Position numbers and translations under genes: made by a program
Source: the human T2T-CHM13v2.0 reference genome, Homo sapiens
DNA length: 64,000 nucleotides
NCBI GenBank assembly: GCA_009914755.4
Contig: CP068257.2
Location: forward strand, 11,104,001 to 11,168,000
Direction of reading: 5' to 3'
In this document: positions 963 to 50,297 of the stretch, in pieces
Layout: each line of letters begins with the position of its first letter
Position numbering within the stretch: the first letter of the stretch is position 1
The notes under the pieces: model-generated
What the model was told of the DNA's origin: nothing
The model's input: the letters and a program-made list of their open reading frames with translations, nothing else
The model's database searches: none

Positions 963-979
963 TCCCGCTTCCAACGAAA
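963..979 (-). promoter_or_regulatory. CENP-B box, monomer 6 (intact)
   Basis: TCCCGCTTCCAACGAAA. Confidence 0.9.
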
Positions 980-1152: not shown

Positions 1153-1302
1153 GCGTCAAGGCGATCGAAATGTCCACTTCCACAAACTACAAAAAGAGTG
1201 TTTCAAACCTGCTCTATGAAAGGCCATGTTCATCTCTATGAGTTGAATGGAAATATCCGAAAGAAATTTCTGGGAATGCTGCTGTCTAGTGTTTATACGA
1301 AT

Positions 1303-1319
1303 TCCCGCTTCCAACGAAA
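1303..1319 (-). promoter_or_regulatory. CENP-B box, monomer 8 (intact)
   Basis: TCCCGCTTCCAACGAAA. Confidence 0.9.
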
Positions 1320-1643
1320 TCCTCAAAGCAATCCAAATATCCACTTGCAGAATCCACAAAAAGAGTGTTTCAAAACTGCTCTATCAATAGAAAGGTTCAA
1401 CTCTTTTAGTTGAGTACACACATCACAAACAAGTTTCTGAGAATGCTTCTGTCTGGCTTTTATTGGAAGACGTTTCCTTTTCACCAAAGGCATCAAAGCG
1501 CTCCAAATGTCCACTTCCAGATTCTTCCAAAAGAGTGTTTCAAACGTGGTCGAAGTAAGGGAATGTTCAACTCTGTGACTTGAATGCAGATATCACCAAG
1601 TAGTTTCTAATAGTGCTTCTGTCTACATTTTAGATGATGATAT

Positions 1644-1660
1644 TCCCGTTTCCAACGAAA
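1644..1660 (-). promoter_or_regulatory. CENP-B box, monomer 10 (intact)
   Basis: TCCCGTTTCCAACGAAA. Confidence 0.9.
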
Positions 1661-1814
1661 TCGTTAGAGCTATCCAAATATCCAGTTACAGTTTCTACCA
1701 AAAGGGTGTTTCCAAATTGCTGCATCAAAAGAAAGGTTCAACTCTGTTAGTTGAGGACACACATCACAAAGAAGTTTGTGAGAATGCTTCTGTCTAGATT
1801 TTGTATGACGATAT

Positions 1815-1831
1815 TCCCTTTTCCAACGATA
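1815..1831 (-). promoter_or_regulatory. Degenerate CENP-B box, monomer 11 (predicted non-binding)
   Basis: TCCCTTTTCCAACGATA. Both essential blocks are hit (CCCG->CCCT and CGAA->CGAT). This form is conserved in all 36 units. Confidence 0.8.
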
Positions 1832-1869
1832 TCGTTAAAGCAATCTAAATATCAATTTGCAGAATCCAC

Positions 1870-29231: not shown

Positions 29232-30759
29232 AAAAATAGAGTTTCAAAGCTGCTCTGTAAAAAGAAAGGTTCCACTCTGTTAGCTGAGTACACACATCAC
29301 AAACTTGTTTCTCAGAATCCTTCTGTCTCGTTTTTATGGGAAGATACTTACTTTTCCACCGTAGGCATCAAAGCGCTCCAAATGTCCACATCCAGATACT
29401 CCAGAACGAGTGTTTCAAACCTGCTCTATGAAAGGGAATCTTCAACTCTATGAGTTGAATGCAGACATCAGAAAGAAATTTCTGAGAATGCTGCTGTCTA
29501 CCTTTTATTTGAATTCCCGCTTCCAACGAAATCCTCCAAGCTATCCAAATATCCACCTGCATTTTCCACAACAAGAGTGTTTCAAAACTGCTCTATCAAT
29601 AGAAATGTTCAACTCCTTTGGCTGGGTACACACATCACAAACAAGTTTCTGAGAATGCTTCTGTCTAGTTTTTATGGGAAGACGTTCCCTTTTTCACCAA
29701 AGGCATCCAAGCGCTCCAAATGTCCACATCCAGATACTCCAGAAAGAGTGTTTCAAACCTGCTCTATGAAAGGGAATCTTCAACTCTATGAGTTGAATGC
29801 AGACATCAGAAAGAAATTTCTGAGAATGCTGCTGTCTACCTTTTATTTGAATTCCCGCTTCCAACGAAATCCTCCAAGCTATCCAAATATCCACTTGCAG
29901 ATTCCACAAAAAGAGTGTTTCAAAACTGCTCTCTATCAATGGCAAAGTTCAACTCTGTTAGTTGAGGACACATATCACCAACAAGTTTCTGAGAATGCTT
30001 CTGTCTATTTTTTATGGGAAGATATTTCCTTTTTCACCATAGGCGTCAAGGCGATCGAAATGTCCACTTCCACAAACTACAAAAAGAGTGTTTCAAACCT
30101 GCTCTATGAAAGGCCATGTTCATCTCTATGAGTTGAATGGAAATATCCGAAAGAAATTTCTGGGAATGCTGCTGTCTAGTGTTTATACGAATTCCCGCTT
30201 CCAACGAAATCCTCAAAGCAATCCAAATATCCACTTGCAGAATCCACAAAAAGAGTGTTTCAAAACTGCTCTATCAATAGAAAGGTTCAACTCTTTTAGT
30301 TGAGTACACACATCACGAACAAGTTTCTGAGAATGCTTCTGTCTGGCTTTTATTGGAAGACGTTTCCTTTTCAACAAAGGCATCAAAGCGCTCCAAATGT
30401 CCACTTCCAGATTCTTCCAAAAGAGTGTTTCAAACGTGCTCAAAGTAAGGGAATGTTCAACTCTGTGACTTGAATGCAGATATCACCAAGTAGTTTCTAA
30501 TAGTGCTTCTGCCTACATTTTAGATGATGATATTCCCTTTTCCAACGAAATCGTTAGAGCTATCCAAATATCCAGTTACAGTTTCTACCAAAAGGGTGTT
30601 TCCAAATTGCTGCATCAAAAGAAAGGTTCAACTCTGTTAGTTGAGGACACACATCACAAAGAAGTTTGTGAGAATGCTTCTGTCTAGATTTTGTATGACG
30701 ATATTCCCTTTTCCAACGATATCGTTAAAGCAATCTAAATATCAATTTGCAGAATCCAC
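29232..30759 (-). repeat. HOR unit 17: 9-mer deletion variant (1528 bp; m1, m2, m3/5 fusion, m6-m11)
   Basis: Anchor spacing 1528 bp, i.e. 2 x 171 bp missing. The m3 end joins the m5 end inside the shared 'aaagcgctccaaatgtccac' tract. The junction is marked by the unique 'ggcatccaagcgc' at ~29705-29730. m7 'caccataggcg', m9 'ttcaacaaagg', m10 'ctgcctac' with box CCCT. Confidence 0.9.
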
Positions 30760-32629
30760 AAAAATAGAGTTTCAAAGCTGCTCTGTAAAAAGAAAGGTTC
30801 CACTCTGTTAGCTGAGTACACACATCACAAACTTGTTTCTGAGAATCCTTCTGTCTCGTTTTTATGGGAAGATATTTACTTTTCCACCGTAGGCATCAAA
30901 GCGCTCCAAATGTCCACATCCAGATACTCCAGAACGAGTGTTTCAAACCTGCTCTATGAAAGGGAATCTTCAACTCTATGAGTTGAATGCAGACATCAGA
31001 AAGAAATTTCTGAGAATGCTGCTGTCTACCTTTTATTTGAATTCCCGCTTCCAACGAAATCCTCCAAGCTATCCAAATATCCACCTGCATTTTCCACAAA
31101 AAGAGTGTTTCAAAACTGCTCTATCAATAGAAATGTTCAACTCCTTTGGCTGGGTACACACATCACAAACAAGTTTCTGAGAATGCTTCTGTCTAGTTTT
31201 TATGGGAAGACATTCCCTTTTTCACCAAAGACATCAAAGCGCTCCAAATGTCCACTTCCAGACACTACAAAAAGAGTGTTTCAAACGTGCTCTAAGAAAG
31301 CGAATGTTCAACTCTGTGACTTGAATGCAGATATCACAAAGTAGTTTCTGAGAGGGCTTCTGTCTAGATTTTAGATGATGATATTCCCGTTTCCAACGAA
31401 ATCATTAGAGCTATCCAAATATCCACTTACAGTTTCTACAAAAAGAGTGTTTCCAAACTGCTGCATCAAAAGAGAGGTTCCACTCTGTTAGCTGAGTACA
31501 CACATCACAAACTTGTTTCTCAGAATCCTTCTGTCTCGTTTTTATGGGAAGATATTTACTTTTTCACCGTAGGCATCAAAGCGCTCCAAATGTCCACATC
31601 CAGATACTCCAGAAAGAGTGTTTCAAACCTGCTCTATGAAAGGGAATCTTCAACTCTATGAGTTGAATGCAGACATCAGAAAGAAATTTCTGAGAATGCT
31701 GCTGTCTACCTTTTATTTGAATTCCCGCTTCCAACGAAATCCTCCAAGCTATCCAAATATCCACTTGCAGATTCCACAAAAAGAGTGTTTCAAAACTGCT
31801 CTCTATCAATGGCAAAGTTCAACTCTGTTAGTTGAGGACACATATCACCAACAAGTTTCTGAGAATGCTTCTGTCTATTTTTTATGGGAAGATATTTCCT
31901 TTTTCACCGTAGGCGTCAAGGCGATCGAAATGTCCACTTCCACAAACTACAAAAAGAGTGTTTCAAACCTGCTCTATGAAAGGCCATGTTCATCTCTATG
32001 AGTTGAATGGAAATATCCGAAAGAAATTTCTGGGAATGCTGCTGTCTAGTGTTTATACGAATTCCCGCTTCCAACGTAATCCTCAAAGCAATCCAAATAT
32101 CCACTTGCAGAATCCACAAAAAGAGTGTTTCAAAACTGCTCTATCAATAGAAAGGTTCAACTCTTTTAGTTGAGTACACACATCACGAACAAGTTTCTGA
32201 GAATGCTTCTGTCTGGCTTTTATTGGAAGACGTTTCCTTTTCACCAAAGGCATCAAAGCGCTCCAAATGTCCACTTCCAGATTCTTCCAAAAGAGTGTTT
32301 CAAACGTGCTCAAAGTAAGGGAATGTTCAACTCTGTGACTTGAATGCAGATATCACCAAGTAGTTTCTAATAGTGCTTCTGTCTACATTTTAGATGATGA
32401 TATTCCCGTTTCCAACGAAATCGCTAGAGCTATCCAAATATCCAGTTACAGTTTCTACCAAAAGGGTGTTTCCAAATTGCTGCATCAAAAGAAAGGTTCA
32501 ACTCTGTTAGTTGAGGACACACATCACAAAGAAGTTTGTGAGAATGCTTCTGTCTAGGTTTTGTATGACGATATTCCCTTTTCCAACGATATCGTTAAAG
32601 CAATCTAAATATCAATTTGCAGAATCCAC
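30760..32629 (-). repeat. HOR unit 18 (11-mer, 1870 bp; haplotype A)
   Basis: m1 'tctgagaatcc...gatatttacttttcc'. m3 'gacattccc/gacatcaaag'. 'gcagatatc'. m8 'cgtaat'. m10 intact box with 'cgctagag'. m11 'ctaggttttg'. Confidence 0.9.
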
Positions 32630-34497
32630 AAAAATAGAGTTTCAAAGCTGCTCTGTAAAAAGAAAGGTTCCACTCTGTTAGCTGAGTACACACATCACAA
32701 ACTTGTTTCTCAGAATCCTTCTGTCTCGTTTTTATGGGAAGATACTTACTTTTCCACCGTAGGCATCAAAGCGCTCCAAATGTCCACATCCAGATACTCC
32801 AGAACGAGTGTTTCAAACCTGCTCTATGAAAGGGAATCTTCAACTCTATGAGTTGAATGCAGACATCAGAAAGAAATTTCTGAGAATGCTGCTGTCTACC
32901 TTTTATTTGAATTCCCGCTTCCAACGAAATCCTCCAAGCTATCCAAATATCCACCTGCATTTTCCACAACAAGAGTGTTTCAAAACTGCTCTATCAATAG
33001 AAATGTTCAACTCCTTTGGCTGGGTACACACATCACAAACAAGTTTCTGAGAATGCTTCTGTCTAGTTTTTATGGGAAGACGTTCCCTTTTTCACCAAAG
33101 GCATCAAAGCGCTCCAAATGTCCACTTCCAGACACTACAAAAAGAGTGTTTCAAACGTGCTCTAAGAAAGCGAATGTTCAACTCTGTGACTTGAATGCAC
33201 ATATCACAAAGTAGTTTCTGAGAGGGCTTCTGTCTAGATTTTAGATGATGATATTCCCGTTTCCAACAAAATCATTAGAGCTTCCAAATATCCACTTACA
33301 GTTTCTACAAAAAGAGTGTTTCCAAACTGCTGCATCAAAAGAGAGGTTCCACTCTGTTAGCTGAGTACACACATCACAAACTTGTTTCTCAGAATCCTTC
33401 TGTCTCGTTTTTATGGGAAGATTATACTTTTTCACCGTAGGCATCAAAGCGCTCCAAATGTCCACATCCAGATACTCCAGAAAGAGTGTTTCAAACCTGC
33501 CCTATGAAAGGGAATCTTCAACTCTATGAGTTGAATGCAGACATCAGAAAGAAATTTCTGAGAATGCTGCTGTCTACCTTTTATTTGAATTCCCGCTTCC
33601 AACGAAATCCTCCAAGCTATCCAAATATCCACTTGCAGATTCCACAAAAAGAGTGTTTCAAAACTGCTCTCTATCAATGGCAAAGTTCAACTCTGTTAGT
33701 TGAGGACACATATCACCAACAAGTTTCTGAGAATGCTTCTGTCTATTTTTTATGGGAAGATATTTCCTTTTTCACCGTAGGCGTCAAGGCGATCGAAATG
33801 TCCACTTCCACAAACTACAAAAAGAGTGTTTCAAACCTGCTCTATGAAAGGCCATGTTCATCTCTATGAGTTGAATGGAAATATCCGAAAGAAATTTCTG
33901 GGAATGCTGCTGTCTAGTGTTTATACGAATTCCCGCTTCCAACGAAATCCTCAAAGCAATCCAAATATCCACTTGCAGAATCCACAAAAAGAGTGTTTCA
34001 AAACTGCTCTATCAATAGAAAGGTTCAACTCTTTTAGTTGAGTACACACATCACGAACAAGTTTCTGAGAATGCTTCTGTCTGGCTTTTATTGGAAGACG
34101 TTTCCTTTTCAACAAAGGCATCAAAGCGCTCCAAATGTCCACTTCCAGATTCTTCCAAAAGAGTGTTTCAAACGTGCTCAAAGTAAGGGAATGTTCAACT
34201 CTGTGACTTGAATGCAGATATCACCAAGTAGTTTCTAATAGTGCTTCTGCCTACATTTTAGATGATGATATTCCCTTTTCCAACGAAATCGTTAGAGCTA
34301 TCCAAATATCCAGTTACAGTTTCTACCAAAAGGGTGTTTCCAAATTGCTGCATCAAAAGAAAGGTTCAACTCTGTTAGTTGAGGACACACATCACAAAGA
34401 AGTTTGTGAGAATGCTTCTGTCTAGATTTTGTATGACGATATTCCCTTTTCCAACGATATCGTTAAAGCAATCTAAATATCAATTTGCAGAATCCAC
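32630..34497 (-). repeat. HOR unit 19 (11-mer, 1868 bp; haplotype B1)
   Basis: 'gcacatatc'. m4 box CAAA (33255-33271). Indel 'gggaagattatac' (~33415). m6 'cctgccctatg'. m9 'ttcaacaaagg'. m10 'ctgcctac' with box CCCT. Confidence 0.9.
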
Positions 34498-36367
34498 AAA
34501 AATAGAGTTTCAAAGCTGCTCTGTAAAAAGAAAGGTTCCACTCTGTTAGCTGAGTACACACATCACAAACTTGTTTCTGAGAATCCTTCTGTCTCGTTTT
34601 TATGGGAAGATATTTACTTTTCCACCGTAGGCATCAAAGCGCTCCAAATGTCCACATCCAGATACTCCAGAACGAGTGTTTCAAACCTGCTCTATGAAAG
34701 GGAATCTTCAACTCTATGAGTTGAATGCAGACATCAGAAAGAAATTTCTGAGAATGCTGCTGTCTACCTTTTATTTGAATTCCCGCTTCCAACGAAATCC
34801 TCCAAGCTATCCAAATATCCACCTGCATTTTCCACAAAAAGAGTGTTTCAAAACTGCTCTATCAATAGAAATGTTCAACTCCTTTGGCTGGGTACACACA
34901 TCACAAACAAGTTTCTGAGAATGCTTCTGTCTAGTTTTTATGGGAAGACATTCCCTTTTTCACCAAAGACATCAAAGCGCTCCAAATGTCCACTTCCAGA
35001 CACTACAAAAAGAGTGTTTCAAACGTGCTCTAAGAAAGCGAATGTTCAACTCTGTGACTTGAATGCAGATATCACAAAGTAGTTTCTGAGAGGGCTTCTG
35101 TCTAGATTTTAGATGATGATATTCCCGTTTCCAACGAAATCATTAGAGCTATCCAAATATCCACTTACAGTTTCTACAAAAAGAGTGTTTCCAAACTGCT
35201 GCATCAAAAGAGAGGTTCCACTCTGTTAGCCGAGTACACACATCACAAACTTGTTTCTCAGAATCCTTCTGTCTCGTTTTTATGGGAAGATATTTACTTT
35301 TTCACCGTAGGCATCAAAGCGCTCCAAATGTCCACATCCAGATACTCCAGAAAGAGTGTTTCAAACCTGCTCTATGAAAGGGAATCTTCAACTCTATGAG
35401 TTGAATGCAGACATCAGAAAGAAATTTCTGAGAATGCTGCTGTCTACCTTTTATTTGAATTCCCGCTTCCAACGAAATCCTCCAAGCTATCCAAATATCC
35501 ACTTGCAGATTCCACAAAAAGAGTGTTTCAAAACTGCTCTCTATCAATGGCAAAGTTCAACTCTGTTAGTTGAGGACACATATCACCAACAAGTTTCTGA
35601 GAATGCTTCTGTCTATTTTTTATGGGAAGATATTTCCTTTTTCACCGTAGGCGTCAAGGCGATCGAAATGTCCACTTCCACAAACTACAAAAAGAGTGTT
35701 TCAAACCTGCTCTATGAAAGGCCATGTTCATCTCTATGAGTTGAATGGAAATATCCGAAAGAAATTTCTGGGAATGCTGCTGTCTAGTGTTTATACGAAT
35801 TCCCGCTTCCAACGAAATCCTCAAAGCAATCCAAATATCCACTTGCAGAATCCACAAAAAGAGTGTTTCAAAACTGCTCTATCAATAGAAAGGTTCAACT
35901 CTTTTAGTTGAGTACACACATCACGAACAAGTTTCTGAGAATGCTTCTGTCTGGCTTTTATTGGAAGACGTTTCCTTTTCACCAAAGGCATCAAAGCGCT
36001 CCAAATGTCCACTTCCAGATTCTTCCAAAAGAGTGTTTCAAACGTGCTCAAAGTAAGGGAATGTTCAACTCTGTGACTTGAATGCAGATATCACCAAGTA
36101 GTTTCTAATAGTGCTTCTGTCTACATTTTAGATGATGATATTCCCGTTTCCAACGAAATCGCTAGAGCTATCCAAATATCCAGTTACAGTTTCTACCAAA
36201 AGGGTGTTTCCAAATTGCTGCATCAAAAGAAAGGTTCAACTCTGTTAGTTGAGGACACACATCACAAAGAAGTTTGTGAGAATGCTTCTGTCTAGATTTT
36301 GTATGACGATATTCCCTTTTCCAACGATATCGTTAAAGCAATCTAAATATCAATTTGCAGAATCCAC
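34498..36367 (-). repeat. HOR unit 20 (11-mer, 1870 bp; haplotype C)
   Basis: A-like first half. m5 'gccgag' (35221). m8 'cgaaat'. m10 intact box. m11 'ctagattttg'. Confidence 0.9.
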
Positions 36368-37895
36368 AAAAATAGAGTTTCAAAGCTGCTCTGTAAAAAG
36401 AAAGGTTCCACTCTGTTAGCTGAGTACACACATCACAAACTTGTTTCTCAGAATCCTTCTGTCTCGTTTTTATGGGAAGATACTTACTTTTCCACCGTAG
36501 GCATCAAAGCGCTCCAAATGTCCACATCCAGATACTCCAGAACGAGTGTTTCAAACCTGCTCTATGAAAGGGAATCTTCAACTCTATGAGTTGAATGCAG
36601 ACATCAGAAAGAAATTTCTGAGAATGCTGCTGTCTACCTTTTATTTGAATTCCCGCTTCCAACGAAATCCTCCAAGCTATCCAAATATCCACCTGCATTT
36701 TCCACAACAAGAGTGTTTCAAAACTGCTCTATCAATAGAAATGTTCAACTCCTTTGGCTGGGTACACACATCACAAACAAGTTTCTGAGAATGCTTCTGT
36801 CTAGTTTTTATGGGAAGACGTTCCCTTTTTCACCAAAGGCATCCAAGCGCTCCAAATGTCCACATCCAGATACTCCAGAAAGAGTGTTTCAAACCTGCTC
36901 TATGAAAGGGAATCTTCAACTCTATGAGTTGAATGCAGACATCAGAAAGAAATTTCTGAGAATGCTGCTGTCTACCTTTTATTTGAATTCCCGCTTCCAA
37001 CGAAATCCTCCAAGCTATCCAAATATCCACTTGCAGATTCCACAAAAAGAGTGTTTCAAAACTGCTCTCTATCAATGGCAAAGTTCAACTCTGTTAGTTG
37101 AGGACACATATCACCAACAAGTTTCTGAGAATGCTTCTGTCTATTTTTTATGGGAAGATATTTCCTTTTTCACCATAGGCGTCAAGGCGATCGAAATGTC
37201 CACTTCCACAAACTACAAAAAGAGTGTTTCAAACCTGCTCTATGAAAGGCCATGTTCATCTCTATGAGTTGAATGGAAATATCCGAAAGAAATTTCTGGG
37301 AATGCTGCTGTCTAGTGTTTATACGAATTCCCGCTTCCAACGAAATCCTCAAAGCAATCCAAATATCCACTTGCAGAATCCACAAAAAGAGTGTTTCAAA
37401 ACTGCTCTATCAATAGAAAGGTTCAACTCTTTTAGTTGAGTACACACATCACGAACAAGTTTCTGAGAATGCTTCTGTCTGGCTTTTATTGGAAGACGTT
37501 TCCTTTTCAACAAAGGCATCAAAGCGCTCCAAATGTCCACTTCCAGATTCTTCCAAAAGAGTGTTTCAAACGTGCTCAAAGTAAGGGAATGTTCAACTCT
37601 GTGACTTGAATGCAGATATCACCAAGTAGTTTCTAATAGTGCTTCTGCCTACATTTTAGATGATGATATTCCCTTTTCCAACGAAATCGTTAGAGCTATC
37701 CAAATATCCAGTTACAGTTTCTACCAAAAGGGTGTTTCCAAATTGCTGCATCAAAAGAAAGGTTCAACTCTGTTAGTTGAGGACACACATCACAAAGAAG
37801 TTTGTGAGAATGCTTCTGTCTAGATTTTGTATGACGATATTCCCTTTTCCAACGATATCGTTAAAGCAATCTAAATATCAATTTGCAGAATCCAC
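36368..37895 (-). repeat. HOR unit 21: 9-mer variant (1528 bp)
   Basis: Same m3/m5 junction 'ggcatccaagcgc' at ~36840-36866. Identical ORF artefacts to unit 17 (the 184-aa fusion ORF at 36713). Confidence 0.9.
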
Positions 37896-39765
37896 AAAAA
37901 TAGAGTTTCAAAGCTGCTCTGTAAAAAGAAAGGTTCCACTCTGTTAGCTGAGTACACACATCACAAACTTGTTTCTGAGAATCCTTCTGTCTCGTTTTTA
38001 TGGGAAGATATTTACTTTTCCACCGTAGGCATCAAAGCGCTCCAAATGTCCACATCCAGATACTCCAGAACGAGTGTTTCAAACCTGCTCTATGAAAGGG
38101 AATCTTCAACTCTATGAGTTGAATGCAGACATCAGAAAGAAATTTCTGAGAATGCTGCTGTCTACCTTTTATTTGAATTCCCGCTTCCAACGAAATCCTC
38201 CAAGCTATCCAAATATCCACCTGCATTTTCCACAAAAAGAGTGTTTCAAAACTGCTCTATCAATAGAAATGTTCAACTCCTTTGGCTGGGTACACACATC
38301 ACAAACAAGTTTCTGAGAATGCTTCTGTCTAGTTTTTATGGGAAGACATTCCCTTTTTCACCAAAGACATCAAAGCGCTCCAAATGTCCACTTCCAGACA
38401 CTACAAAAAGAGTGTTTCAAACGTGCTCTAAGAAAGCGAATGTTCAACTCTGTGACTTGAATGCAGATATCACAAAGTAGTTTCTGAGAGGGCTTCTGTC
38501 TAGATTTTAGATGATGATATTCCCGTTTCCAACGAAATCATTAGAGCTATCCAAATATCCACTTACAGTTTCTACAAAAAGAGTGTTTCCAAACTGCTGC
38601 ATCAAAAGAGAGGTTCCACTCTGTTAGCTGAGTACACACATCACAAACTTGTTTCTCAGAATCCTTCTGTCTCGTTTTTATGGGAAGATATTTACTTTTT
38701 CACCGTAGGCATCAAAGCGCTCCAAATGTCCACATCCAGATACTCCAGAAAGAGTGTTTCAAACCTGCTCTATGAAAGGGAATCTTCAACTCTATGAGTT
38801 GAATGCAGACATCAGAAAGAAATTTCTGAGAATGCTGCTGTCTACCTTTTATTTGAATTCCCGCTTCCAACGAAATCCTCCAAGCTATCCAAATATCCAC
38901 TTGCAGATTCCACAAAAAGAGTGTTTCAAAACTGCTCTCTATCAATGGCAAAGTTCAACTCTGTTAGTTGAGGACACATATCACCAACAAGTTTCTGAGA
39001 ATGCTTCTGTCTATTTTTTATGGGAAGATATTTCCTTTTTCACCGTAGGCGTCAAGGCGATCGAAATGTCCACTTCCACAAACTACAAAAAGAGTGTTTC
39101 AAACCTGCTCTATGAAAGGCCATGTTCATCTCTATGAGTTGAATGGAAATATCCGAAAGAAATTTCTGGGAATGCTGCTGTCTAGTGTTTATACGAATTC
39201 CCGCTTCCAACGTAATCCTCAAAGCAATCCAAATATCCACTTGCAGAATCCACAAAAAGAGTGTTTCAAAACTGCTCTATCAATAGAAAGGTTCAACTCT
39301 TTTAGTTGAGTACACACATCACGAACAAGTTTCTGAGAATGCTTCTGTCTGGCTTTTATTGGAAGACGTTTCCTTTTCACCAAAGGCATCAAAGCGCTCC
39401 AAATGTCCACTTCCAGATTCTTCCAAAAGAGTGTTTCAAACGTGCTCAAAGTAAGGGAATGTTCAACTCTGTGACTTGAATGCAGATATCACCAAGTAGT
39501 TTCTAATAGTGCTTCTGTCTACATTTTAGATGATGATATTCCCGTTTCCAACGAAATCGCTAGAGCTATCCAAATATCCAGTTACAGTTTCTACCAAAAG
39601 GGTGTTTCCAAATTGCTGCATCAAAAGAAAGGTTCAACTCTGTTAGTTGAGGACACACATCACAAAGAAGTTTGTGAGAATGCTTCTGTCTAGGTTTTGT
39701 ATGACGATATTCCCTTTTCCAACGATATCGTTAAAGCAATCTAAATATCAATTTGCAGAATCCAC
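37896..39765 (-). repeat. HOR unit 22 (11-mer, 1870 bp; haplotype A)
   Basis: Same markers as unit 18 ('cgtaat' at 39211, 'cgctagag' at 39551, 'ctaggttttg' at 39681). Confidence 0.9.
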
Positions 39766-41633
39766 AAAAATAGAGTTTCAAAGCTGCTCTGTAAAAAGAA
39801 AGGTTCCACTCTGTTAGCTGAGTACACACATCACAAACTTGTTTCTGAGAATCCTTCTGTCTCGTTTTTATGGGAAGATACTTACTTTTCCACCGTAGGC
39901 ATCAAAGCGCTCCAAATGTCCACATCCAGATACTCCAGAACGAGTGTTTCAAACCTGCTCTATGAAAGGGAATCTTCAACTCTATGAGTTGAATGCAGAC
40001 ATCAGAAAGAAATTTCTGAGAATGCTGCTGTCTACCTTTTATTTGAATTCCCGCTTCCAACGAAATCCTCCAAGCTATCCAAATATCCACCTGCATTTTC
40101 CACAACAAGAGTGTTTCAAAACTGCTCTATCAATAGAAATGTTCAACTCCTTTGGCTGGGTACACACATCACAAACAAGTTTCTGAGAATGCTTCTGTCT
40201 AGTTTTTATGGGAAGACGTTCCCTTTTTCACCAAAGGCATCAAAGCGCTCCAAATGTCCACTTCCAGACACTACAAAAAGAGTGTTTCAAACGTGCTCTA
40301 AGAAAGCGAATGTTCAACTCTGTGACTTGAATGCACATATCACAAAGTAGTTCCTGAGAGGGCTTCTGTCTAGATTTTAGATGATGATATTCCCGTTTCC
40401 AACAAAATCATTAGAGCTTCCAAATATCCACTTACAGTTTCTACAAAAAGAGTGTTTCCAAACTGCTGCATCAAAAGAGAGGTTCCACTCTGTTAGCTGA
40501 GTACACACATCACAAACTTGTTTCTCAGAATCCTTCTGTCTCGTTTTTATGGGAAGATTATACTTTTTCACCGTAGGCATCAAAGCGCTCCAAATGTCCA
40601 CATCCAGATACTCCAGAAAGAGTGTTTCAAACCTGCCCTATGAAAGGGAATCTTCAACTCTATGAGTTGAATGCAGACATCAGAAAGAAATTTCTGAGAA
40701 TGCTGCTGTCTACCTTTTATTTGAATTCCCGCTTCCAACGAAATCCTCCAAGCTATCCAAATATCCACTTGCAGATTCCACAAAAAGAGTGTTTCAAAAC
40801 TGCTCTCTATCAATGGCAAAGTTCAACTCTGTTAGTTGAGGACACATATCACCAACAAGTTTCTGAGAATGCTTCTGTCTATTTTTTATGGGAAGATATT
40901 TCCTTTTTCACCGTAGGCGTCAAGGCGATCGAAATGTCCACTTCCACAAACTACAAAAAGAGTGTTTCAAACCTGCTCTATGAAAGGCCATGTTCATCTC
41001 TATGAGTTGAATGGAAATATCCGAAAGAAATTTCTGGGAATGCTGCTGTCTAGTGTTTATACGAATTCCCGCTTCCAACGAAATCCTCAAAGCAATCCAA
41101 ATATCCACTTGCAGAATCCACAAAAAGAGTGTTTCAAAACTGCTCTATCAATAGAAAGGTTCAACTCTTTTAGTTGAGTACACACATCACGAACAAGTTT
41201 CTGAGAATGCTTCTGTCTGGCTTTTATTGGAAGACGTTTCCTTTTCACCAAAGGCATCAAAGCGCTCCAAATGTCCACTTCCAGATTCTTCCAAAAGAGT
41301 GTTTCAAACGTGCTCAAAGTAAGGGAATGTTCAACTCTGTGACTTGAATGCAGATATCACCAAGTAGTTTCTAATAGTGCTTCTGCCTACATTTTAGATG
41401 ATGATATTCCCTTTTCCAACGAAATCGTTAGAGCTATCCAAATATCCAGTTACAGTTTCTACCAAAAGGGTGTTTCCAAATTGCTGCATCAAAAGAAAGG
41501 TTCAACTCTGTTAGTTGAGGACACACATCACAAAGAAGTTTGTGAGAATGCTTCTGTCTAGATTTTGTATGACGATATTCCCTTTTCCAACGATATCGTT
41601 AAAGCAATCTAAATATCAATTTGCAGAATCCAC
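39766..41633 (-). repeat. HOR unit 23 (11-mer, 1868 bp; haplotype B1)
   Basis: 'gcacatatc'. 'gtagttcctgag' variant. m4 box CAAA (40391-40407). 'gattatac'. m6 'cctgccctatg'. m10 'ctgcctac' with box CCCT. m9 reverted to 'ttcaccaaagg'. Confidence 0.9.
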
Positions 41634-43503
41634 AAAAATAGAGTTTCAAAGCTGCTCTGTAAAAAGAAAGGTTCCACTCTGTTAGCTGAGTACACACATC
41701 ACAAACTTGTTTCTGAGAATCCTTCTGTCTCGTTTTTATGGGAAGATATTTACTTTTCCACCGTAGGCATCAAAGCGCTCCAAATGTCCACATCCAGATA
41801 CTCCAGAACGAGTGTTTCAAACCTGCTCTATGAAAGGGAATCTTCAACTCTATGAGTTGAATGCAGACATCAGAAAGAAATTTCTGAGAATGCTGCTGTC
41901 TACCTTTTATTTGAATTCCCGCTTCCAACGAAATCCTCCAAGCTATCCAAATATCCACCTGCATTTTCCACAAAAAGAGTGTTTCAAAACTGCTCTATCA
42001 ATAGAAATGTTCAACTCCTTTGGCTGGGTACACACATCACAAACAAGTTTCTGAGAATGCTTCTGTCTAGTTTTTATGGGAAGACATTCCCTTTTTCACC
42101 AAAGACATCAAAGCGCTCCAAATGTCCACTTCCAGACACTACAAAAAGAGTGTTTCAAACGTGCTCTAAGAAAGCGAATGTTCAACTCTGTGACTTGAAT
42201 GCAGATATCACAAAGTAGTTTCTGAGAGGGCTTCTGTCTAGATTTTAGATGATGATATTCCCGTTTCCAACGAAATCATTAGAGCTATCCAAATATCCAC
42301 TTACAGTTTCTACAAAAAGAGTGTTTCCAAACTGCTGCATCAAAAGAGAGGTTCCACTCTGTTAGCCGAGTACACACATCACAAACTTGTTTCTCAGAAT
42401 CCTTCTGTCTCGTTTTTATGGGAAGATATTTACTTTTTCACCGTAGGCATCAAAGCGCTCCAAATGTCCACATCCAGATACTCCAGAAAGAGTGTTTCAA
42501 ACCTGCTCTATGAAAGGGAATCTTCAACTCTATGAGTTGAATGCAGACATCAGAAAGAAATTTCTGAGAATGCTGCTGTCTACCTTTTATTTGAATTCCC
42601 GCTTCCAACGAAATCCTCCAAGCTATCCAAATATCCACTTGCAGATTCCACAAAAAGAGTGTTTCAAAACTGCTCTCTATCAATGGCAAAGTTCAACTCT
42701 GTTAGTTGAGGACACATATCACCAACAAGTTTCTGAGAATGCTTCTGTCTATTTTTTATGGGAAGATATTTCCTTTTTCACCGTAGGCGTCAAGGCGATC
42801 GAAATGTCCACTTCCACAAACTACAAAAAGAGTGTTTCAAACCTGCTCTATGAAAGGCCATGTTCATCTCTATGAGTTGAATGGAAATATCCGAAAGAAA
42901 TTTCTGGGAATGCTGCTGTCTAGTGTTTATACGAATTCCCGCTTCCAACGTAATCCTCAAAGCAATCCAAATATCCACTTGCAGAATCCACAAAAAGAGT
43001 GTTTCAAAACTGCTCTATCAATAGAAAGGTTCAACTCTTTTAGTTGAGTACACACATCACGAACAAGTTTCTGAGAATGCTTCTGTCTGGCTTTTATTGG
43101 AAGACGTTTCCTTTTCACCAAAGGCATCAAAGCGCTCCAAATGTCCACTTCCAGATTCTTCCAAAAGAGTGTTTCAAACGTGCTCAAAGTAAGGGAATGT
43201 TCAACTCTGTGACTTGAATGCAGATATCACCAAGTAGTTTCTAATAGTGCTTCTGTCTACATTTTAGATGATGATATTCCCGTTTCCAACGAAATCGCTA
43301 GAGCTATCCAAATATCCAGTTACAGTTTCTACCAAAAGGGTGTTTCCAAATTGCTGCATCAAAAGAAAGGTTCAACTCTGTTAGTTGAGGACACACATCA
43401 CAAAGAAGTTTGTGAGAATGCTTCTGTCTAGATTTTGTATGACGATATTCCCTTTTCCAACGATATCGTTAAAGCAATCTAAATATCAATTTGCAGAATC
43501 CAC
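41634..43503 (-). repeat. HOR unit 24 (11-mer, 1870 bp; haplotype C)
   Basis: m5 'gccgag' (42361). m8 'cgtaat' (42951). m10 intact box. m11 'ctagattttg'. Confidence 0.9.
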
Positions 43504-45031
43504 AAAAATAGAGTTTCAAAGCTGCTCTGTAAAAAGAAAGGTTCCACTCTGTTAGCTGAGTACACACATCACAAACTTGTTTCTCAGAATCCTTCTGTCT
43601 CGTTTTTATGGGAAGATACTTACTTTTCCACCGTAGGCATCAAAGCGCTCCAAATGTCCACATCCAGATACTCCAGAACGAGTGTTTCAAACCTGCTCTA
43701 TGAAAGGGAATCTTCAACTCTATGAGTTGAATGCAGACATCAGAAAGAAATTTCTGAGAATGCTGCTGTCTACCTTTTATTTGAATTCCCGCTTCCAACG
43801 AAATCCTCCAAGCTATCCAAATATCCACCTGCATTTTCCACAACAAGAGTGTTTCAAAACTGCTCTATCAATAGAAATGTTCAACTCCTTTGGCTGGGTA
43901 CACACATCACAAACAAGTTTCTGAGAATGCTTCTGTCTAGTTTTTATGGGAAGACGTTCCCTTTTTCACCAAAGGCATCCAAGCGCTCCAAATGTCCACA
44001 TCCAGATACTCCAGAAAGAGTGTTTCAAACCTGCTCTATGAAAGGGAATCTTCAACTCTATGAGTTGAATGCAGACATCAGAAAGAAATTTCTGAGAATG
44101 CTGCTGTCTACCTTTTATTTGAATTCCCGCTTCCAACGAAATCCTCCAAGCTATCCAAATATCCACTTGCAGATTCCACAAAAAGAGTGTTTCAAAACTG
44201 CTCTCTATCAATGGCAAAGTTCAACTCTGTTAGTTGAGGACACATATCACCAACAAGTTTCTGAGAATGCTTCTGTCTATTTTTTATGGGAAGATATTTC
44301 CTTTTTCACCATAGGCGTCAAGGCGATCGAAATGTCCACTTCCACAAACTACAAAAAGAGTGTTTCAAACCTGCTCTATGAAAGGCCATGTTCATCTCTA
44401 TGAGTTGAATGGAAATATCCGAAAGAAATTTCTGGGAATGCTGCTGTCTAGTGTTTATACGAATTCCCGCTTCCAACGAAATCCTCAAAGCAATCCAAAT
44501 ATCCACTTGCAGAATCCACAAAAAGAGTGTTTCAAAACTGCTCTATCAATAGAAAGGTTCAACTCTTTTAGTTGAGTACACACATCACGAACAAGTTTCT
44601 GAGAATGCTTCTGTCTGGCTTTTATTGGAAGACGTTTCCTTTTCAACAAAGGCATCAAAGCGCTCCAAATGTCCACTTCCAGATTCTTCCAAAAGAGTGT
44701 TTCAAACGTGCTCAAAGTAAGGGAATGTTCAACTCTGTGACTTGAATGCAGATATCACCAAGTAGTTTCTAATAGTGCTTCTGCCTACATTTTAGATGAT
44801 GATATTCCCTTTTCCAACGAAATCGTTAGAGCTATCCAAATATCCAGTTACAGTTTCTACCAAAAGGGTGTTTCCAAATTGCTGCATCAAAAGAAAGGTT
44901 CAACTCTGTTAGTTGAGGACACACATCACAAAGAAGTTTGTGAGAATGCTTCTGTCTAGATTTTGTATGACGATATTCCCTTTTCCAACGATATCGTTAA
45001 AGCAATCTAAATATCAATTTGCAGAATCCAC
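43504..45031 (-). repeat. HOR unit 25: 9-mer variant (1528 bp)
   Basis: Junction 'ggcatccaagcgc' at ~43977-44000. 184-aa fusion ORF at 43849. Confidence 0.9.
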
Positions 45032-46899
45032 AAAAATAGAGTTTCAAAGCTGCTCTGTAAAAAGAAAGGTTCCACTCTGTTAGCTGAGTACACACATCAC
45101 AAACTTGTTTCTGAGAATCCTTCTGTCTCGTTTTTATGGGAAGATATTTACTTTTCCACCGTAGGCATCAAAGCGCTCCAAATGTCCACATCCAGATACT
45201 CCAGAACGAGTGTTTCAAACCTGCTCTATGAAAGGGAATCTTCAACTCTATGAGTTGAATGCAGACATCAGAAAGAAATTTCTGAGAATGCTGCTGTCTA
45301 CCTTTTATTTGAATTCCCGCTTCCAACGAAATCCTCCAAGCTATCCAAATATCCACCTGCATTTTCCACAAAAAGAGTGTTTCAAAACTGCTCTATCAAT
45401 AGAAATGTTCAACTCCTTTGGCTGGGTACACACATCACAAACAAGTTTCTGAGAATGCTTCTGTCTAGTTTTTATGGGAAGACATTCCCTTTTTCACCAA
45501 AGACATCAAAGCGCTCCAAATGTCCACTTCCAGACACTACAAAAAGAGTGTTTCAAACGTGCTCTAAGAAAGCGAATGTTCAACTCTGTGACTTGAATGC
45601 ACATATCACAAAGTAGTTTCTGAGAGGGCTTCTGTCTAGATTTTAGATGATGATATTCCCGTTTCCAACAAAATCATTAGAGCTTCCAAATATCCACTTA
45701 CAGTTTCTACAAAAAGAGTGTTTCCAAACTGCTGCATCAAAAGAGAGGTTCCACTCTGTTAGCTGAGTACACACATCACAAACTTGTTTCTCAGAATCCT
45801 TCTGTCTCGTTTTTATGGGAAGATTATACTTTTTCACCGTAGGCATCAAAGCGCTCCAAATGTCCACATCCAGATACTCCAGAAAGAGTGTTTCAAACCT
45901 GCCCTATGAAAGGGAATCTTCAACTCTATGAGTTGAATGCAGACATCAGAAAGAAATTTCTGAGAATGCTGCTGTCTACCTTTTATTTGAATTCCCGCTT
46001 CCAACGAAATCCTCCAAGCTATCCAAATATCCACTTGCAGATTCCACAAAAAGAGTGTTTCAAAACTGCTCTCTATCAATGGCAAAGTTCAACTCTGTTA
46101 GTTGAGGACACATATCACCAACAAGTTTCTGAGAATGCTTCTGTCTATTTTTTATGGGAAGATATTTCCTTTTTCACCGTAGGCGTCAAGGCGATCGAAA
46201 TGTCCACTTCCACAAACTACAAAAAGAGTGTTTCAAACCTGCTCTATGAAAGGCCATGTTCATCTCTATGAGTTGAATGGAAATATCCGAAAGAAATTTC
46301 TGGGAATGCTGCTGTCTAGTGTTTATACGAATTCCCGCTTCCAACGAAATCCTCAAAGCAATCCAAATATCCACTTGCAGAATCCACAAAAAGAGTGTTT
46401 CAAAACTGCTCTATCAATAGAAAGGTTCAACTCTTTTAGTTGAGTACACACATCACGAACAAGTTTCTGAGAATGCTTCTGTCTGGCTTTTATTGGAAGA
46501 CGTTTCCTTTTCAACAAAGGCATCAAAGCGCTCCAAATGTCCACTTCCAGATTCTTCCAAAAGAGTGTTTCAAACGTGCTCAAAGTAAGGGAATGTTCAA
46601 CTCTGTGACTTGAATGCAGATATCACCAAGTAGTTTCTAATAGTGCTTCTGCCTACATTTTAGATGATGATATTCCCTTTTCCAACGAAATCGTTAGAGC
46701 TATCCAAATATCCAGTTACAGTTTCTACCAAAAGGGTGTTTCCAAATTGCTGCATCAAAAGAAAGGTTCAACTCTGTTAGTTGAGGACACACATCACAAA
46801 GAAGTTTGTGAGAATGCTTCTGTCTAGATTTTGTATGACGATATTCCCTTTTCCAACGATATCGTTAAAGCAATCTAAATATCAATTTGCAGAATCCAC
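45032..46899 (-). repeat. HOR unit 26 (11-mer, 1868 bp; A/B1 recombinant)
   Basis: m1-m3 carry the A markers ('gatatttacttttcc', 'gacattccc', 'aagacatcaaag' at 45501-45515). From 'gcacatatc' (45600-45608) onward the markers are B1: m4 box CAAA (45657-45673), 'gattatac' (~45825), 'cctgccctatg', 'ctgcctac', box CCCT. Confidence 0.88.
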
Positions 46900-48769
46900 A
46901 AAAATAGAGTTTCAAAGCTGCTCTGTAAAAAGAAAGGTTCCACTCTGTTAGCTGAGTACACACATCACAAACTTGTTTCTGAGAATCCTTCTGTCTCGTT
47001 TTTATGGGAAGATATTTACTTTTCCACCGTAGGCATCAAAGCGCTCCAAATGTCCACATCCAGATACTCCAGAACGAGTGTTTCAAACCTGCTCTATGAA
47101 AGGGAATCTTCAACTCTATGAGTTGAATGCAGACATCAGAAAGAAATTTCTGAGAATGCTGCTGTCTACCTTTTATTTGAATTCCCGCTTCCAACGAAAT
47201 CCTCCAAGCTATCCAAATATCCACCTGCATTTTCCACAAAAAGAGTGTTTCAAAACTGCTCTATCAATAGAAATGTTCAACTCCTTTGGCTGGGTACACA
47301 CATCACAAACAAGTTTCTGAGAATGCTTCTGTCTAGTTTTTATGGGAAGACATTCCCTTTTTCACCAAAGACATCAAAGCGCTCCAAATGTCCACTTCCA
47401 GACACTACAAAAAGAGTGTTTCAAACGTGCTCTAAGAAAGCGAATGTTCAACTCTGTGACTTGAATGCAGATATCACAAAGTAGTTTCTGAGAGGGCTTC
47501 TGTCTAGATTTTAGATGATGATATTCCCGTTTCCAACGAAATCATTAGAGCTATCCAAATATCCACTTACAGTTTCTACAAAAAGAGTGTTTCCAAACTG
47601 CTGCATCAAAAGAGAGGTTCCACTCTGTTAGCCGAGTACACACATCACAAACTTGTTTCTCAGAATCCTTCTGTCTCGTTTTTATGGGAAGATATTTACT
47701 TTTTCACCGTAGGCATCAAAGCGCTCCAAATGTCCACATCCAGATACTCCAGAAAGAGTGTTTCAAACCTGCTCTATGAAAGGGAATCTTCAACTCTATG
47801 AGTTGAATGCAGACATCAGAAAGAAATTTCTGAGAATGCTGCTGTCTACCTTTTATTTGAATTCCCGCTTCCAACGAAATCCTCCAAGCTATCCAAATAT
47901 CCACTTGCAGATTCCACAAAAAGAGTGTTTCAAAACTGCTCTCTATCAATGGCAAAGTTCAACTCTGTTAGTTGAGGACACATATCACCAACAAGTTTCT
48001 GAGAATGCTTCTGTCTATTTTTTATGGGAAGATATTTCCTTTTTCACCGTAGGCGTCAAGGCGATCGAAATGTCCACTTCCACAAACTACAAAAAGAGTG
48101 TTTCAAACCTGCTCTATGAAAGGCCATGTTCATCTCTATGAGTTGAATGGAAATATCCGAAAGAAATTTCTGGGAATGCTGCTGTCTAGTGTTTATACGA
48201 ATTCCCGCTTCCAACGAAATCCTCAAAGCAATCCAAATATCCACTTGCAGAATCCACAAAAAGAGTGTTTCAAAACTGCTCTATCAATAGAAAGGTTCAA
48301 CTCTTTTAGTTGAGTACACACATCACGAACAAGTTTCTGAGAATGCTTCTGTCTGGCTTTTATTGGAAGACGTTTCCTTTTCACCAAAGGCATCAAAGCG
48401 CTCCAAATGTCCACTTCCAGATTCTTCCAAAAGAGTGTTTCAAACGTGCTCAAAGTAAGGGAATGTTCAACTCTGTGACTTGAATGCAGATATCACCAAG
48501 TAGTTTCTAATAGTGCTTCTGTCTACATTTTAGATGATGATATTCCCGTTTCCAACGAAATCGCTAGAGCTATCCAAATATCCAGTTACAGTTTCTACCA
48601 AAAGGGTGTTTCCAAATTGCTGCATCAAAAGAAAGGTTCAACTCTGTTAGTTGAGGACACACATCACAAAGAAGTTTGTGAGAATGCTTCTGTCTAGATT
48701 TTGTATGACGATATTCCCTTTTCCAACGATATCGTTAAAGCAATCTAAATATCAATTTGCAGAATCCAC
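46900..48769 (-). repeat. HOR unit 27 (11-mer, 1870 bp; haplotype C)
   Basis: m5 'gccgag' (47631). m8 'cgaaat'. m10 intact box. Confidence 0.9.
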
Positions 48770-50297
48770 AAAAATAGAGTTTCAAAGCTGCTCTGTAAAA
48801 AGAAAGGTTCCACTCTGTTAGCTGAGTACACACATCACAAACTTGTTTCTCAGAATCCTTCTGTCTCGTTTTTATGGGAAGATACTTACTTTTCCACCGT
48901 AGGCATCAAAGCGCTCCAAATGTCCACATCCAGATACTCCAGAACGAGTGTTTCAAACCTGCTCTATGAAAGGGAATCTTCAACTCTATGAGTTGAATGC
49001 AGACATCAGAAAGAAATTTCTGAGAATGCTGCTGTCTACCTTTTATTTGAATTCCCGCTTCCAACGAAATCCTCCAAGCTATCCAAATATCCACCTGCAT
49101 TTTCCACAACAAGAGTGTTTCAAAACTGCTCTATCAATAGAAATGTTCAACTCCTTTGGCTGGGTACACACATCACAAACAAGTTTCTGAGAATGCTTCT
49201 GTCTAGTTTTTATGGGAAGACGTTCCCTTTTTCACCAAAGGCATCCAAGCGCTCCAAATGTCCACATCCAGATACTCCAGAAAGAGTGTTTCAAACCTGC
49301 TCTATGAAAGGGAATCTTCAACTCTATGAGTTGAATGCAGACATCAGAAAGAAATTTCTGAGAATGCTGCTGTCTACCTTTTATTTGAATTCCCGCTTCC
49401 AACGAAATCCTCCAAGCTATCCAAATATCCACTTGCAGATTCCACAAAAAGAGTGTTTCAAAACTGCTCTCTATCAATGGCAAAGTTCAACTCTGTTAGT
49501 TGAGGACACATATCACCAACAAGTTTCTGAGAATGCTTCTGTCTATTTTTTATGGGAAGATATTTCCTTTTTCACCATAGGCGTCAAGGCGATCGAAATG
49601 TCCACTTCCACAAACTACAAAAAGAGTGTTTCAAACCTGCTCTATGAAAGGCCATGTTCATCTCTATGAGTTGAATGGAAATATCCGAAAGAAATTTCTG
49701 GGAATGCTGCTGTCTAGTGTTTATACGAATTCCCGCTTCCAACGAAATCCTCAAAGCAATCCAAATATCCACTTGCAGAATCCACAAAAAGAGTGTTTCA
49801 AAACTGCTCTATCAATAGAAAGGTTCAACTCTTTTAGTTGAGTACACACATCACGAACAAGTTTCTGAGAATGCTTCTGTCTGGCTTTTATTGGAAGACG
49901 TTTCCTTTTCAACAAAGGCATCAAAGCGCTCCAAATGTCCACTTCCAGATTCTTCCAAAAGAGTGTTTCAAACGTGCTCAAAGTAAGGAAATGTTCAACT
50001 CTGTGACTTGAATGCAGATATCACCAAGTAGTTTCTAATAGTGCTTCTGCCTACATTTTAGATGATGATATTCCCTTTTCCAACGAAATCGTTAGAGCTA
50101 TCCAAATATCCAGTTACAGTTTCTACCAAAAGGGTGTTTCCAAATTGCTGCATCAAAAGAAAGGTTCAACTCTGTTAGTTGAGGACACACATCACAAAGA
50201 AGTTTGTGAGAATGCTTCTGTCTAGATTTTGTATGACGATATTCCCTTTTCCAACGATATCGTTAAAGCAATCTAAATATCAATTTGCAGAATCCAC
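48770..50297 (-). repeat. HOR unit 28: 9-mer variant (1528 bp)
   Basis: Junction 'ggcatccaagcgc' at ~49243-49266. Private variant 'gtaaggaaatg' at ~49983. Confidence 0.9.

What the first reader, a model, noticed from the sequence alone, without database searches (positions are those of the whole stretch)
45504..45601. Unequal crossover between A and B1 units shortened super-repeat copy 3; breakpoint localised to ~100 bp
S3 (43504-48769) is 5266 bp, which is 7136 minus one 1870-bp unit. Its middle unit (45032-46899) carries the A markers up to 'aagacatcaaag' (45501-45515) and the B1 markers from 'gcacatatc' (~45600) onward, including the broken m4 box, 'gattatac', 'cctgccctatg' and 'ctgcctac'. 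That is the product expected from a one-unit out-of-register exchange between the adjacent A and B1 units of an intact copy. It fuses them and deletes 1870 bp, with the exchange point in the m3/m4 boundary region between the last A and the first B1 marker.
Basis: seen in the sequence. Interest (0 to 1): 0.55.

Follow-up and report, generated by a model that had tools for sequence, protein, structure and literature searches.

The report
Chimeric repeat unit in chromosome-21 centromere
One 1.87-kb repeat unit in the human chromosome 21 centromere satellite is a clean left-half/right-half fusion of two neighbouring unit types, the ordinary footprint of out-of-register recombination that makes centromere arrays gain and lose repeats.

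Summary
The window is alpha satellite, and its variant positions match the D21Z1 11-mer array of T2T-CHM13 chr21, starting at about 11,103,571.

Unit u26 (45032-46899) differs from the A units at 0 sites up to 45503 and at 12 sites from 45602 onward. It differs from the B1 unit of super-repeat copy S1 at 5 sites on the left and 0 on the right. Of the 15 fixed A/B1 differences, 4 are A-type on the left and 11 are B1-type on the right, so there is one switch. Copy S3 equals copy S1 minus 1870 bp with 0 mismatches in 5266 bp. The junction can lie anywhere in the 98 identical bases 45504-45601.

The interpretation, an out-of-register homologous exchange between an A and a B1 unit, is supported. 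Two points stay open:
- **History.** A single 12,402-bp tandem duplication, joining A of a later copy to B1 of S1, gives the same sequence as a one-unit deletion.
- **Pathway.** Sister-chromatid crossover, loop-out, single-strand annealing and break-induced replication cannot be told apart from the product.

A and B2 are one haplotype (Y); B1 and the 9-mer are another (X).

This process is well known, and the short copy already appears in a published chr21 map. Interest is low.

The parts
45504..45601 (.). Exchange interval: 98 bp identical in A and B1 units. It is bounded by the last A marker (45503, A rather than G) and the first B1 marker (45602, C rather than G), and it spans the m3/m4 monomer boundary (unit columns 473-570).
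   Evidence: This 98-mer occurs 26 times in the window. The 100-mer 45503-45602 occurs only once.
45032..46899 (.). Chimeric 11-mer HOR unit u26 (1868 bp). The left part, 45032-45503, is A/Y-type. The right part, 45602-46899, is B1/X-type and identical to u19. It has 3 intact CENP-B boxes (m2, m6, m8), the same as an X unit.
43504..48769 (.). Short super-repeat copy S3 (5266 bp), made of the 9-mer u25, the chimera u26 and the Y unit u27. It is identical to S1 minus 1870 bp.
   Evidence: 0 mismatches against S1 with the deletion; 3 against S2 and 4 against S4
29232..36367 (.). Copy S1 (7136 bp), made of the 9-mer u17, A u18, B1 u19 and B2 u20. It is the intact form whose B1 and B2 variants (33217 T, 34112 A, 35815 A) are the ones carried by S3.
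33102..45601 (.). First copy of a 12.4-kb identity block. It matches 45504-58003 at lag 12402 with 2 mismatches (37587/49989 and 39838/52240). This is the expected footprint of either history: duplication followed by deletion, or a single 12.4-kb duplication.
45659..45675 (-). m4 CENP-B box position in u26, inactivated by the X-type G>A change at 45670 (TTCG becomes TTTG on the box strand). It lies 58 bp to the right of the exchange interval.

Best explanation
**Context.** The window is the active D21Z1 (alpha21-I, 11-monomer, 1870 bp) alpha-satellite array of human chromosome 21. Between about 18 kb and 57 kb, two HOR haplotypes alternate. A four-unit block, in which the first X unit had lost two monomers, was amplified as a 7136-bp super-repeat.

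**Proposed event.** Copy S3 arose when a Y unit (A) and the X unit one position downstream (B1) paired one unit out of register. The two units are 99.2% identical. Homology-directed repair resolved the exchange inside a 98-bp stretch of perfect identity (45504-45601). This fused A-left to B1-right and removed 1870 bp from a copy of S1 type. That copy had itself been made by duplication of the S1-S2 pair.

**Shown:**
- the chimeric unit and its single switch;
- the exact one-unit length change;
- the S1-type identity of everything to the right of the junction.

**Inferred:**
- that an intact S1-like copy once stood at this position;
- that the pathway was unequal sister-chromatid or intrachromatid recombination, rather than single-strand annealing or replication template switching.

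**Consequence.** S3 has four fewer intact CENP-B boxes than S1 (11 against 15), and no other detectable effect.
For: - **Periodicity and unit map:**
- **Identity of the array:** the positions of the 7-mer and of six 9-mers match the T2T-CHM13 chr21 coordinates in the Fig. 3d legend of PMC12385485 to the base. The Cen21 ChIP primers of PMC4694756 match the array, at about one and two sites per unit. CENP-B boxes sit in alternate monomers.
- **Chimera:** 0/12 and 5/0 mismatch profiles and 15 fixed markers with one switch.
- **Deletion:** S3 equals S1 minus 1870 bp with 0 mismatches in 5266 bp.
- **Parent units are older:** pure X and pure Y units alternate upstream in u11-u16, so A and B1 are the ancestral forms and the chimera is derived.
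- **Such events are frequent:** whole-HOR insertions and deletions arise de novo. 18 of 150 centromere transmissions carried a de novo structural variant, 13 of them in HOR arrays, and chromosome 21 is among the examples (PMC12240836).
Against: - A two-step history (14,272-bp duplication followed by 1870-bp deletion) needs one more event than a single 12,402-bp duplication that yields the same sequence. No marker on the left side of S3 tells the two apart.
- No reciprocal product (B1-left/A-right) is present in the window. None is expected on the same chromatid.
- Read-level support for this part of the assembly could not be examined.
Confidence: 0.5

Rival explanations
1. The junction is the same, but it was made in one step. 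An unequal exchange, or break-induced replication with out-of-register re-invasion, joined the A unit of the copy that originally followed S2 to the B1 unit of S1, 12,402 bp upstream. This duplicated the segment B1-right + B2 + S2 + 9-mer + A-left. On this reading S3 is the novel joint of a tandem duplication and was never a full four-unit copy.
For: - 33102-45601 equals 45504-58003 at lag 12402 with only 2 mismatches. The block is 12,402 + 98 bp long, which is the signature of a duplication whose ends share the 98-bp exchange interval.
- Everything in S3 to the right of the junction is S1-type, and S4 is S2-type plus two private changes, as a single duplication predicts.
- It needs one event instead of two.
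Against: - Pairing in super-repeat register (offset 7136 or 14,272 bp, about 99.95% identity) should be favoured over an X-against-Y register (99.2%).
- One-unit indels are common enough that about 0.7 would be expected in the same time as the 2 substitutions seen. This is my estimate from the rates in PMC12240836.
- The window holds no marker that discriminates between the two histories.
Confidence: 0.4
2. Assembly artefact: one 1870-bp unit was collapsed during assembly of near-identical repeats, which created a false A/B1 junction.
For: The repeats are 99-100% identical over kilobases, the situation in which collapses occur. Read data could not be inspected here.
Against: - The junction is a clean, in-register chimera with no extra errors.
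- S3 otherwise matches S1 perfectly.
- The A and B1 units differ at 15 sites within 1.87 kb, which accurate long reads can resolve.
- The same 5266-bp spacing is reported independently from the released T2T-CHM13 assembly.
- The T2T centromeres were read-validated; this rests on my own knowledge and was not checked here.
Confidence: 0.04
3. Gene-conversion mosaic, or an ancestral chimera. Either u26 is a patchwork made by non-crossover conversion, or the three-unit copy is the original form and the four-unit copies derive from it.
For: Out-of-register conversion-like chimeras do exist nearby. u33 and u34 are Y-left/X-right with no net length change.
Against: - Conversion does not remove exactly one unit.
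- The profile has one switch, not several.
- Deriving A (all Y) and B1 (all X) from the chimera would need about 15 coordinated reversions.
- Pure X and pure Y units predate the super-repeat (u11-u16).
- No single unequal exchange starting from 9-mer + chimera + B2 produces a unit with an X-type left part (reasoned from the marker matrix).
Confidence: 0.02

Closest known systems
Unequal homologous exchange in alpha-satellite HOR arrays. Hybrid HOR copies are recognised by diagnostic variant nucleotides, as in Smith 1976, Waye & Willard 1986, Warburton et al. 1993, and Roizes and co-workers (PMC2853522).
   Same: Near-identical tandem units pair out of register. The product is a chimeric unit with one switch of diagnostic nucleotides and a length change of a whole number of units. 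[quoted passage not shown]
   Different: Here the exchange is mapped in a complete assembly with both parental unit types alongside, so the interval (98 bp) and the parental copy type (S1) can be named. The classic breakpoint studies concerned exchanges between different monomers, which create shorter HORs. This exchange is in register at monomer level and one HOR unit out of register.
Published HOR map of T2T-CHM13 chromosome 21 (Gluncic et al. 2025, PMC12385485)
   Same: It is the same locus. The paper lists the 9-mer variants at 11,132,802, 11,139,938, 11,147,074, 11,152,340, 11,159,476 and 11,166,614. Those spacings (7136, 7136, 5266, 7136, 7138) are identical to the window's. It also notes a CCCV/CCV/CV pattern of canonical (C) and variant (V) units.
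   Different: [quoted passage not shown] It gives no nucleotide-level haplotypes, chimeric unit or breakpoint. Its printed letter string places the CC copy one slot earlier than its own coordinates do.
De novo whole-HOR insertions and deletions seen in pedigrees (Porubsky et al. 2025, PMC12240836)
   Same: All de novo structural changes in HOR arrays were whole numbers of HOR units (680 bp to 12.2 kb), and chromosome 21 is among the examples. Both histories considered here (1.87 kb and 12.4 kb) fall in or at the edge of that size range.
   Different: Those events were observed directly between parent and child. This one is inferred from its product and dated only roughly, at about 800-6,700 generations for the 12.4-kb block, from 2 substitutions.

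Membership tests
Human alpha satellite, D21Z1/D13Z1 (alpha21-I) 11-mer HOR array | 171-bp monomer tandem periodicity | tested here: met
   TRF reports a period of 171 (376.6 copies) and a 338-bp dimer period across 1-63998.
Human alpha satellite, D21Z1/D13Z1 (alpha21-I) 11-mer HOR array | 11-monomer HOR of about 1.87 kb with more than 99% identity between units | tested here: met
   The strongest autocorrelation is at 1870 bp. There are 36 unit starts, mostly 1867-1870 bp apart. Only 53 variable columns exist across the 35 aligned units (u09 left out). PMC2853522 gives 1866 nt for the chr21 HOR.
Human alpha satellite, D21Z1/D13Z1 (alpha21-I) 11-mer HOR array | CENP-B boxes in alternate monomers | tested here: met
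   133 matches to the box core, all on the minus strand, at the m2, m4, m6, m8 and m10 positions. Units carry up to 5; X units have 3 and Y units 4.
Human alpha satellite, D21Z1/D13Z1 (alpha21-I) 11-mer HOR array | Locus-level identity with chromosome 21 | tested here: met
   The Cen21 fw primer matches exactly 71 times. The rv primer matches 15 times exactly and 35 times with at most 1 mismatch. Seven variant-unit coordinates from T2T-CHM13 chr21 match the window if its position 1 is chr21:11,103,571.
Product of unequal (out-of-register) homologous exchange between tandem repeats | Length change equal to a whole number of repeat units | tested here: met
   S3 is 5266 bp = 7136 - 1870.
Product of unequal (out-of-register) homologous exchange between tandem repeats | Chimeric unit with a single switch between parental marker sets | tested here: met
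   4 A-type markers followed by 11 B1-type markers.
Product of unequal (out-of-register) homologous exchange between tandem repeats | Junction lies in uninterrupted homology, and the flanks are collinear with a parental copy | tested here: met
   The identity interval is 98 bp. S1 with 1870 bp removed reproduces S3 with 0 mismatches in 5266 bp.
Product of unequal (out-of-register) homologous exchange between tandem repeats | Reciprocal product (B1-left/A-right, five-unit copy) on the partner chromatid | not testable with these tools
   None is present in the window. The partner chromatid would have segregated away, and intrachromatid or single-strand-annealing routes give no reciprocal product.
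Non-crossover gene-conversion mosaic | Two or more switches of marker phase, with no change in length | tested here: not met
   u26 has one switch and S3 is 1870 bp shorter. By contrast, u33/u34 keep the unit count of S5 unchanged.
Assembly collapse | Junction not supported by spanning reads | not testable with these tools
   No read data are available. Scans of public contig collections for the junction 100-mer found nothing. The control hits never carry the Y marker 472A, so that absence says nothing.

The most novel reading that the evidence does not exclude
The exchange interval of u26 (unit columns 473-570) overlaps the junction of the older two-monomer deletion that created the 9-mer (columns 469-496). 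Both abut the A/B-box position of monomer 3. This could mark a preferred break or resolution site in D21Z1, comparable to the non-random breakpoint clustering that Warburton et al. 1993 reported for D17Z1. If S3 is also the joint of a single 12.4-kb duplication, the locus would record a datable amplification step inside an active centromere array.
Probability: 0.07. Interest if true: 0.35.

Novelty: already known. Interest (0 to 1): 0.12.

Why it matters
It gives a clean, base-resolved example of how centromeric HOR arrays change unit number, in the small active array of human chromosome 21. It also supplies a unique 100-bp junction marker (45503-45602) that could be used to check the assembly or to trace this centromere haplotype in other genomes. 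It adds no new mechanism. Unequal exchange, hybrid HOR units and whole-unit gains and losses are textbook features of alpha satellite, have been seen de novo in pedigrees, and the short copy is already visible in a published map of this assembly.

Tried and rejected
- **MAFFT alignment of whole super-repeat copies.** It placed the 1870-bp gap arbitrarily at 46985, which turned the B1 markers into apparent mismatches. I replaced it with unit-level alignment and an exhaustive scan of deletion placements.
- **Partner unit could be a 9-mer rather than B1.** Rejected. u26 has the B1-only states at columns 795, 797 and 874 and lacks the 9-mer-specific ones.
- **Chimera is ancestral, or a conversion mosaic.** Rejected because of the single switch, the exact unit loss and the older pure X and Y units.
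- **Independent occurrences of the junction.** The 100-mer was scanned against metagenome and prokaryote-genome contigs, where human contamination occurs, and gave 0 hits. The control 98-mer found 25 contaminant contigs. None carries the Y marker 472A, so the absence is uninformative.
- **Warburton et al. 1993 (PMC364711).** The paper is not held in the library, so what I say about it rests on my own recollection and on its citation in PMC5052062.
- **Recombination motif.** No CENP-B box lies inside the exchange interval. The nearest is 58 bp to the right.
- **Separating deletion from the 12.4-kb duplication with left-side markers.** Not possible. All the 9-mers except u28, which has a private change, are identical, and so are all the A-left parts.

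Full report
**What the window is**

Tandem Repeats Finder reports one array covering 1-63998, with a 171-bp period and a stronger 338-bp dimer period. Base composition is flat throughout. Autocorrelation peaks at 1870 bp, then at 7136, 3398, 1528, 5266 and 12402 bp. This is primate alpha satellite arranged as an 11-monomer higher-order repeat (HOR).

CENP-B box cores occur 133 times, all on the minus strand, at the m2, m4, m6, m8 and m10 positions.

Two primers published as 'Cen21 fw/rv' (PMC4694756) match the array, the forward at about two sites per unit and the reverse at about one.

The decisive evidence is positional. The Fig. 3d legend of Gluncic et al. 2025 (PMC12385485) lists a variant unit in T2T-CHM13 chr21 at 11,118,525. 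It lists 9-mer variants at 11,132,802, 11,139,938, 11,147,074, 11,152,340, 11,159,476 and 11,166,614. The window has its 7-mer at 14955 and its 9-mers at 29232, 36368, 43504, 48770, 55906 and 63044. All seven positions agree if window position 1 is chr21:11,103,571. The window is therefore the active D21Z1 array of CHM13, and the exchange interval corresponds to about chr21:11,149,074-11,149,171.

**Anatomy**

I split the window into 36 HOR units (u01-u36) at a conserved 30-mer and aligned them. Apart from a 7-mer (u09) and the 9-mers, only 53 columns vary.

Eleven columns are fixed between X and Y. The A and B1 units differ at 15 fixed sites.

The 7136-bp super-repeat is therefore two X-Y pairs in which the first X unit has lost two monomers (342 bp, with the junction at unit columns 469-496). 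Units u13-u16 are the same four-unit block without that loss.

B2 is not a B1-like unit; it belongs with A.

X and Y also differ in which CENP-B boxes are broken. X lacks the m4 and m10 boxes, and Y lacks the m8 box.

**The finding itself**

The mismatch profile of unit u26 (45032-46899) is as follows:

| Compared with | Differences at or left of 45503 | Differences from 45602 onward |
|---|---|---|
| A units u18, u22, u29 | 0 | 12 |
| B1 of S1 (u19) | 5 | 0 |
| B1 of S2 (u23) | 4 | 2 (45619, 46514) |
| B1 of S4 (u30) | 5 | 2 (45619, 46514) |

- At the 15 fixed A/B1 sites the pattern is four A-type states followed by eleven B1-type states, with one switch. Random assignment of the markers would give one switch or none with p of about 0.0009.
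- Removing 1870 bp from S1 at any of 99 equivalent positions (last retained base 45503-45601) reproduces S3 with 0 mismatches in 5266 bp. The same operation leaves 3 mismatches on S2 and 4 on S4.
It is 98 bp of perfect identity spanning the m3/m4 boundary.
- The broken m4 CENP-B box (45659-45675, G>A at 45670) lies 58 bp to its right and comes from the B1 side.
- The 100-mer 45503-45602 is unique in the window.

**How it arose**

An in-register but one-unit-offset homologous exchange between a Y and an X unit explains every feature.

The chimera must be derived. Pure X and pure Y units alternate upstream, before the super-repeat begins. No single exchange starting from 9-mer + chimera + B2 can create a unit with an X-type left part.

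Gene conversion alone cannot remove one unit, and the profile shows no second switch.

Two matters remain open.

First, the history. S1 and S3 share three variants (B1 columns 588 and 1485, B2 column 1318). S2 and S4 share the alternative states. Block 33102-45601 matches block 45504-58003 at lag 12402 with two mismatches. Two routes give this result:
- Duplication of the S1-S2 pair (14,272 bp), followed by a one-unit deletion in the new S1-type copy.
- A single 12,402-bp duplication whose joint is the A/B1 chimera.

No marker to the left of the junction separates the two routes. I weigh them at about 50:40. In-register pairing and the high rate of one-unit indels count on one side, and the saving of one event counts on the other.

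Second, the pathway. Unequal sister-chromatid exchange, intrachromatid loop-out, single-strand annealing and break-induced replication all leave this same product.

Two substitutions across the 12.4-kb pair put the duplication at roughly 800-6,700 generations ago, depending on the mutation rate used (rates from PMC12240836).

**Comparison with what is known**

- Hybrid HOR units recognised by diagnostic nucleotides, and array evolution by accumulated unequal crossovers, have been described for D21Z1 and other arrays (PMC2853522).
- HOR size variants produced by unequal exchange are classical (PMC5052062 and the Willard-laboratory papers it cites).
- De novo structural variants were seen in 18 of 150 centromere transmissions. 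Thirteen were in HOR arrays, all of them changes of whole HOR units, and chromosome 21 is among the illustrated examples (PMC12240836).
- The chr21 array length varies greatly between genomes (PMC11062924).
- The CCCV/CCV/CV pattern of this very array is published (PMC12385485). It is explained there as duplications of four, three or two units, without haplotypes or breakpoints. The letter string printed in that paper puts the CC copy one slot earlier than its own coordinates do.

**Verdict**

It is a tidy instance of a well-known process in a published reference sequence. The only additions are the base-level breakpoint, the identification of the parental copy type, and the X/Y reading of the super-repeat. 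Interest is low (0.12).

An assembly collapse cannot be excluded without reads, but I consider it unlikely. Scans of public contig collections for the junction were uninformative.

Noticed in passing
window 57434-61173 (u33, u34; copy S5 = 55906-63043, 7138 bp): Two more Y-left/X-right chimeric units sit side by side, with breakpoints different from u26. u33 switches between columns 874 and 1318 (58307-58751). u34 switches between columns 1318 and 1623 (60621-60926). The unit count of S5 is unchanged. The tract u33-right + u34-left looks like a 9-mer-to-A junction copied one unit out of register. That suggests either a conversion tract of about 2.2-2.6 kb or a one-unit duplication followed by an A x B1 deletion; both routes give 7138 bp.
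   Followed up: partly
window 29700-29727 and the same position in every 9-mer (unit columns 469-496): The junction of the two-monomer (342-bp) deletion that created the 9-mer maps to a 28-bp ambiguity window. That window overlaps the u26 exchange interval (columns 473-570) and abuts the A/B-box position of monomer 3. The chance of such an overlap is about 5%. The u33/u34 breakpoints lie elsewhere, so the evidence for a hotspot is weak.
   Followed up: partly
window 18015-57433 (u11-u32): Two HOR haplotypes alternate strictly, giving a 3.74-kb two-unit period beneath the 7136-bp super-repeat. Each haplotype has a different set of inactivated CENP-B boxes: X lacks m4 and m10, and Y lacks m8. 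Only u20 and u27 in this stretch have all five boxes intact.
   Followed up: yes
window 14955-16144 (u09): A single 7-monomer unit (1190 bp) has lost four monomers. The junction is ambiguous over unit columns 82-325. It corresponds to the 'dark red' variant at chr21:11,118,525 in PMC12385485.
   Followed up: partly
window 1-16144 (u01-u09): The left quarter of the window is more heterogeneous. Its units carry mixed X/Y marker states and private variants, and they have 1-bp length differences (1867-1870 bp). It looks like an older or differently homogenised domain next to the super-repeat domain.
   Followed up: no
loci L001-L025: Human D13Z1/D21Z1 alpha-satellite contigs are present as contaminants in public metagenome assemblies. 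They also occur in two records labelled as bacterial genomes (Campylobacter concisus CABPVN010000095.1 and Ornithinimicrobium laminariae JAHZSU010000008.1). None carries the Y-haplotype marker 472A, and one (L019) carries the X marker 571C.
   Followed up: partly
PMC12385485, section 2.3 against the Fig. 3d legend: The letter string printed in the paper (CCCVCCCVCCV...) places the two-unit copy one slot earlier than the paper's own coordinates do. The coordinates agree exactly with the window.
   Followed up: yes
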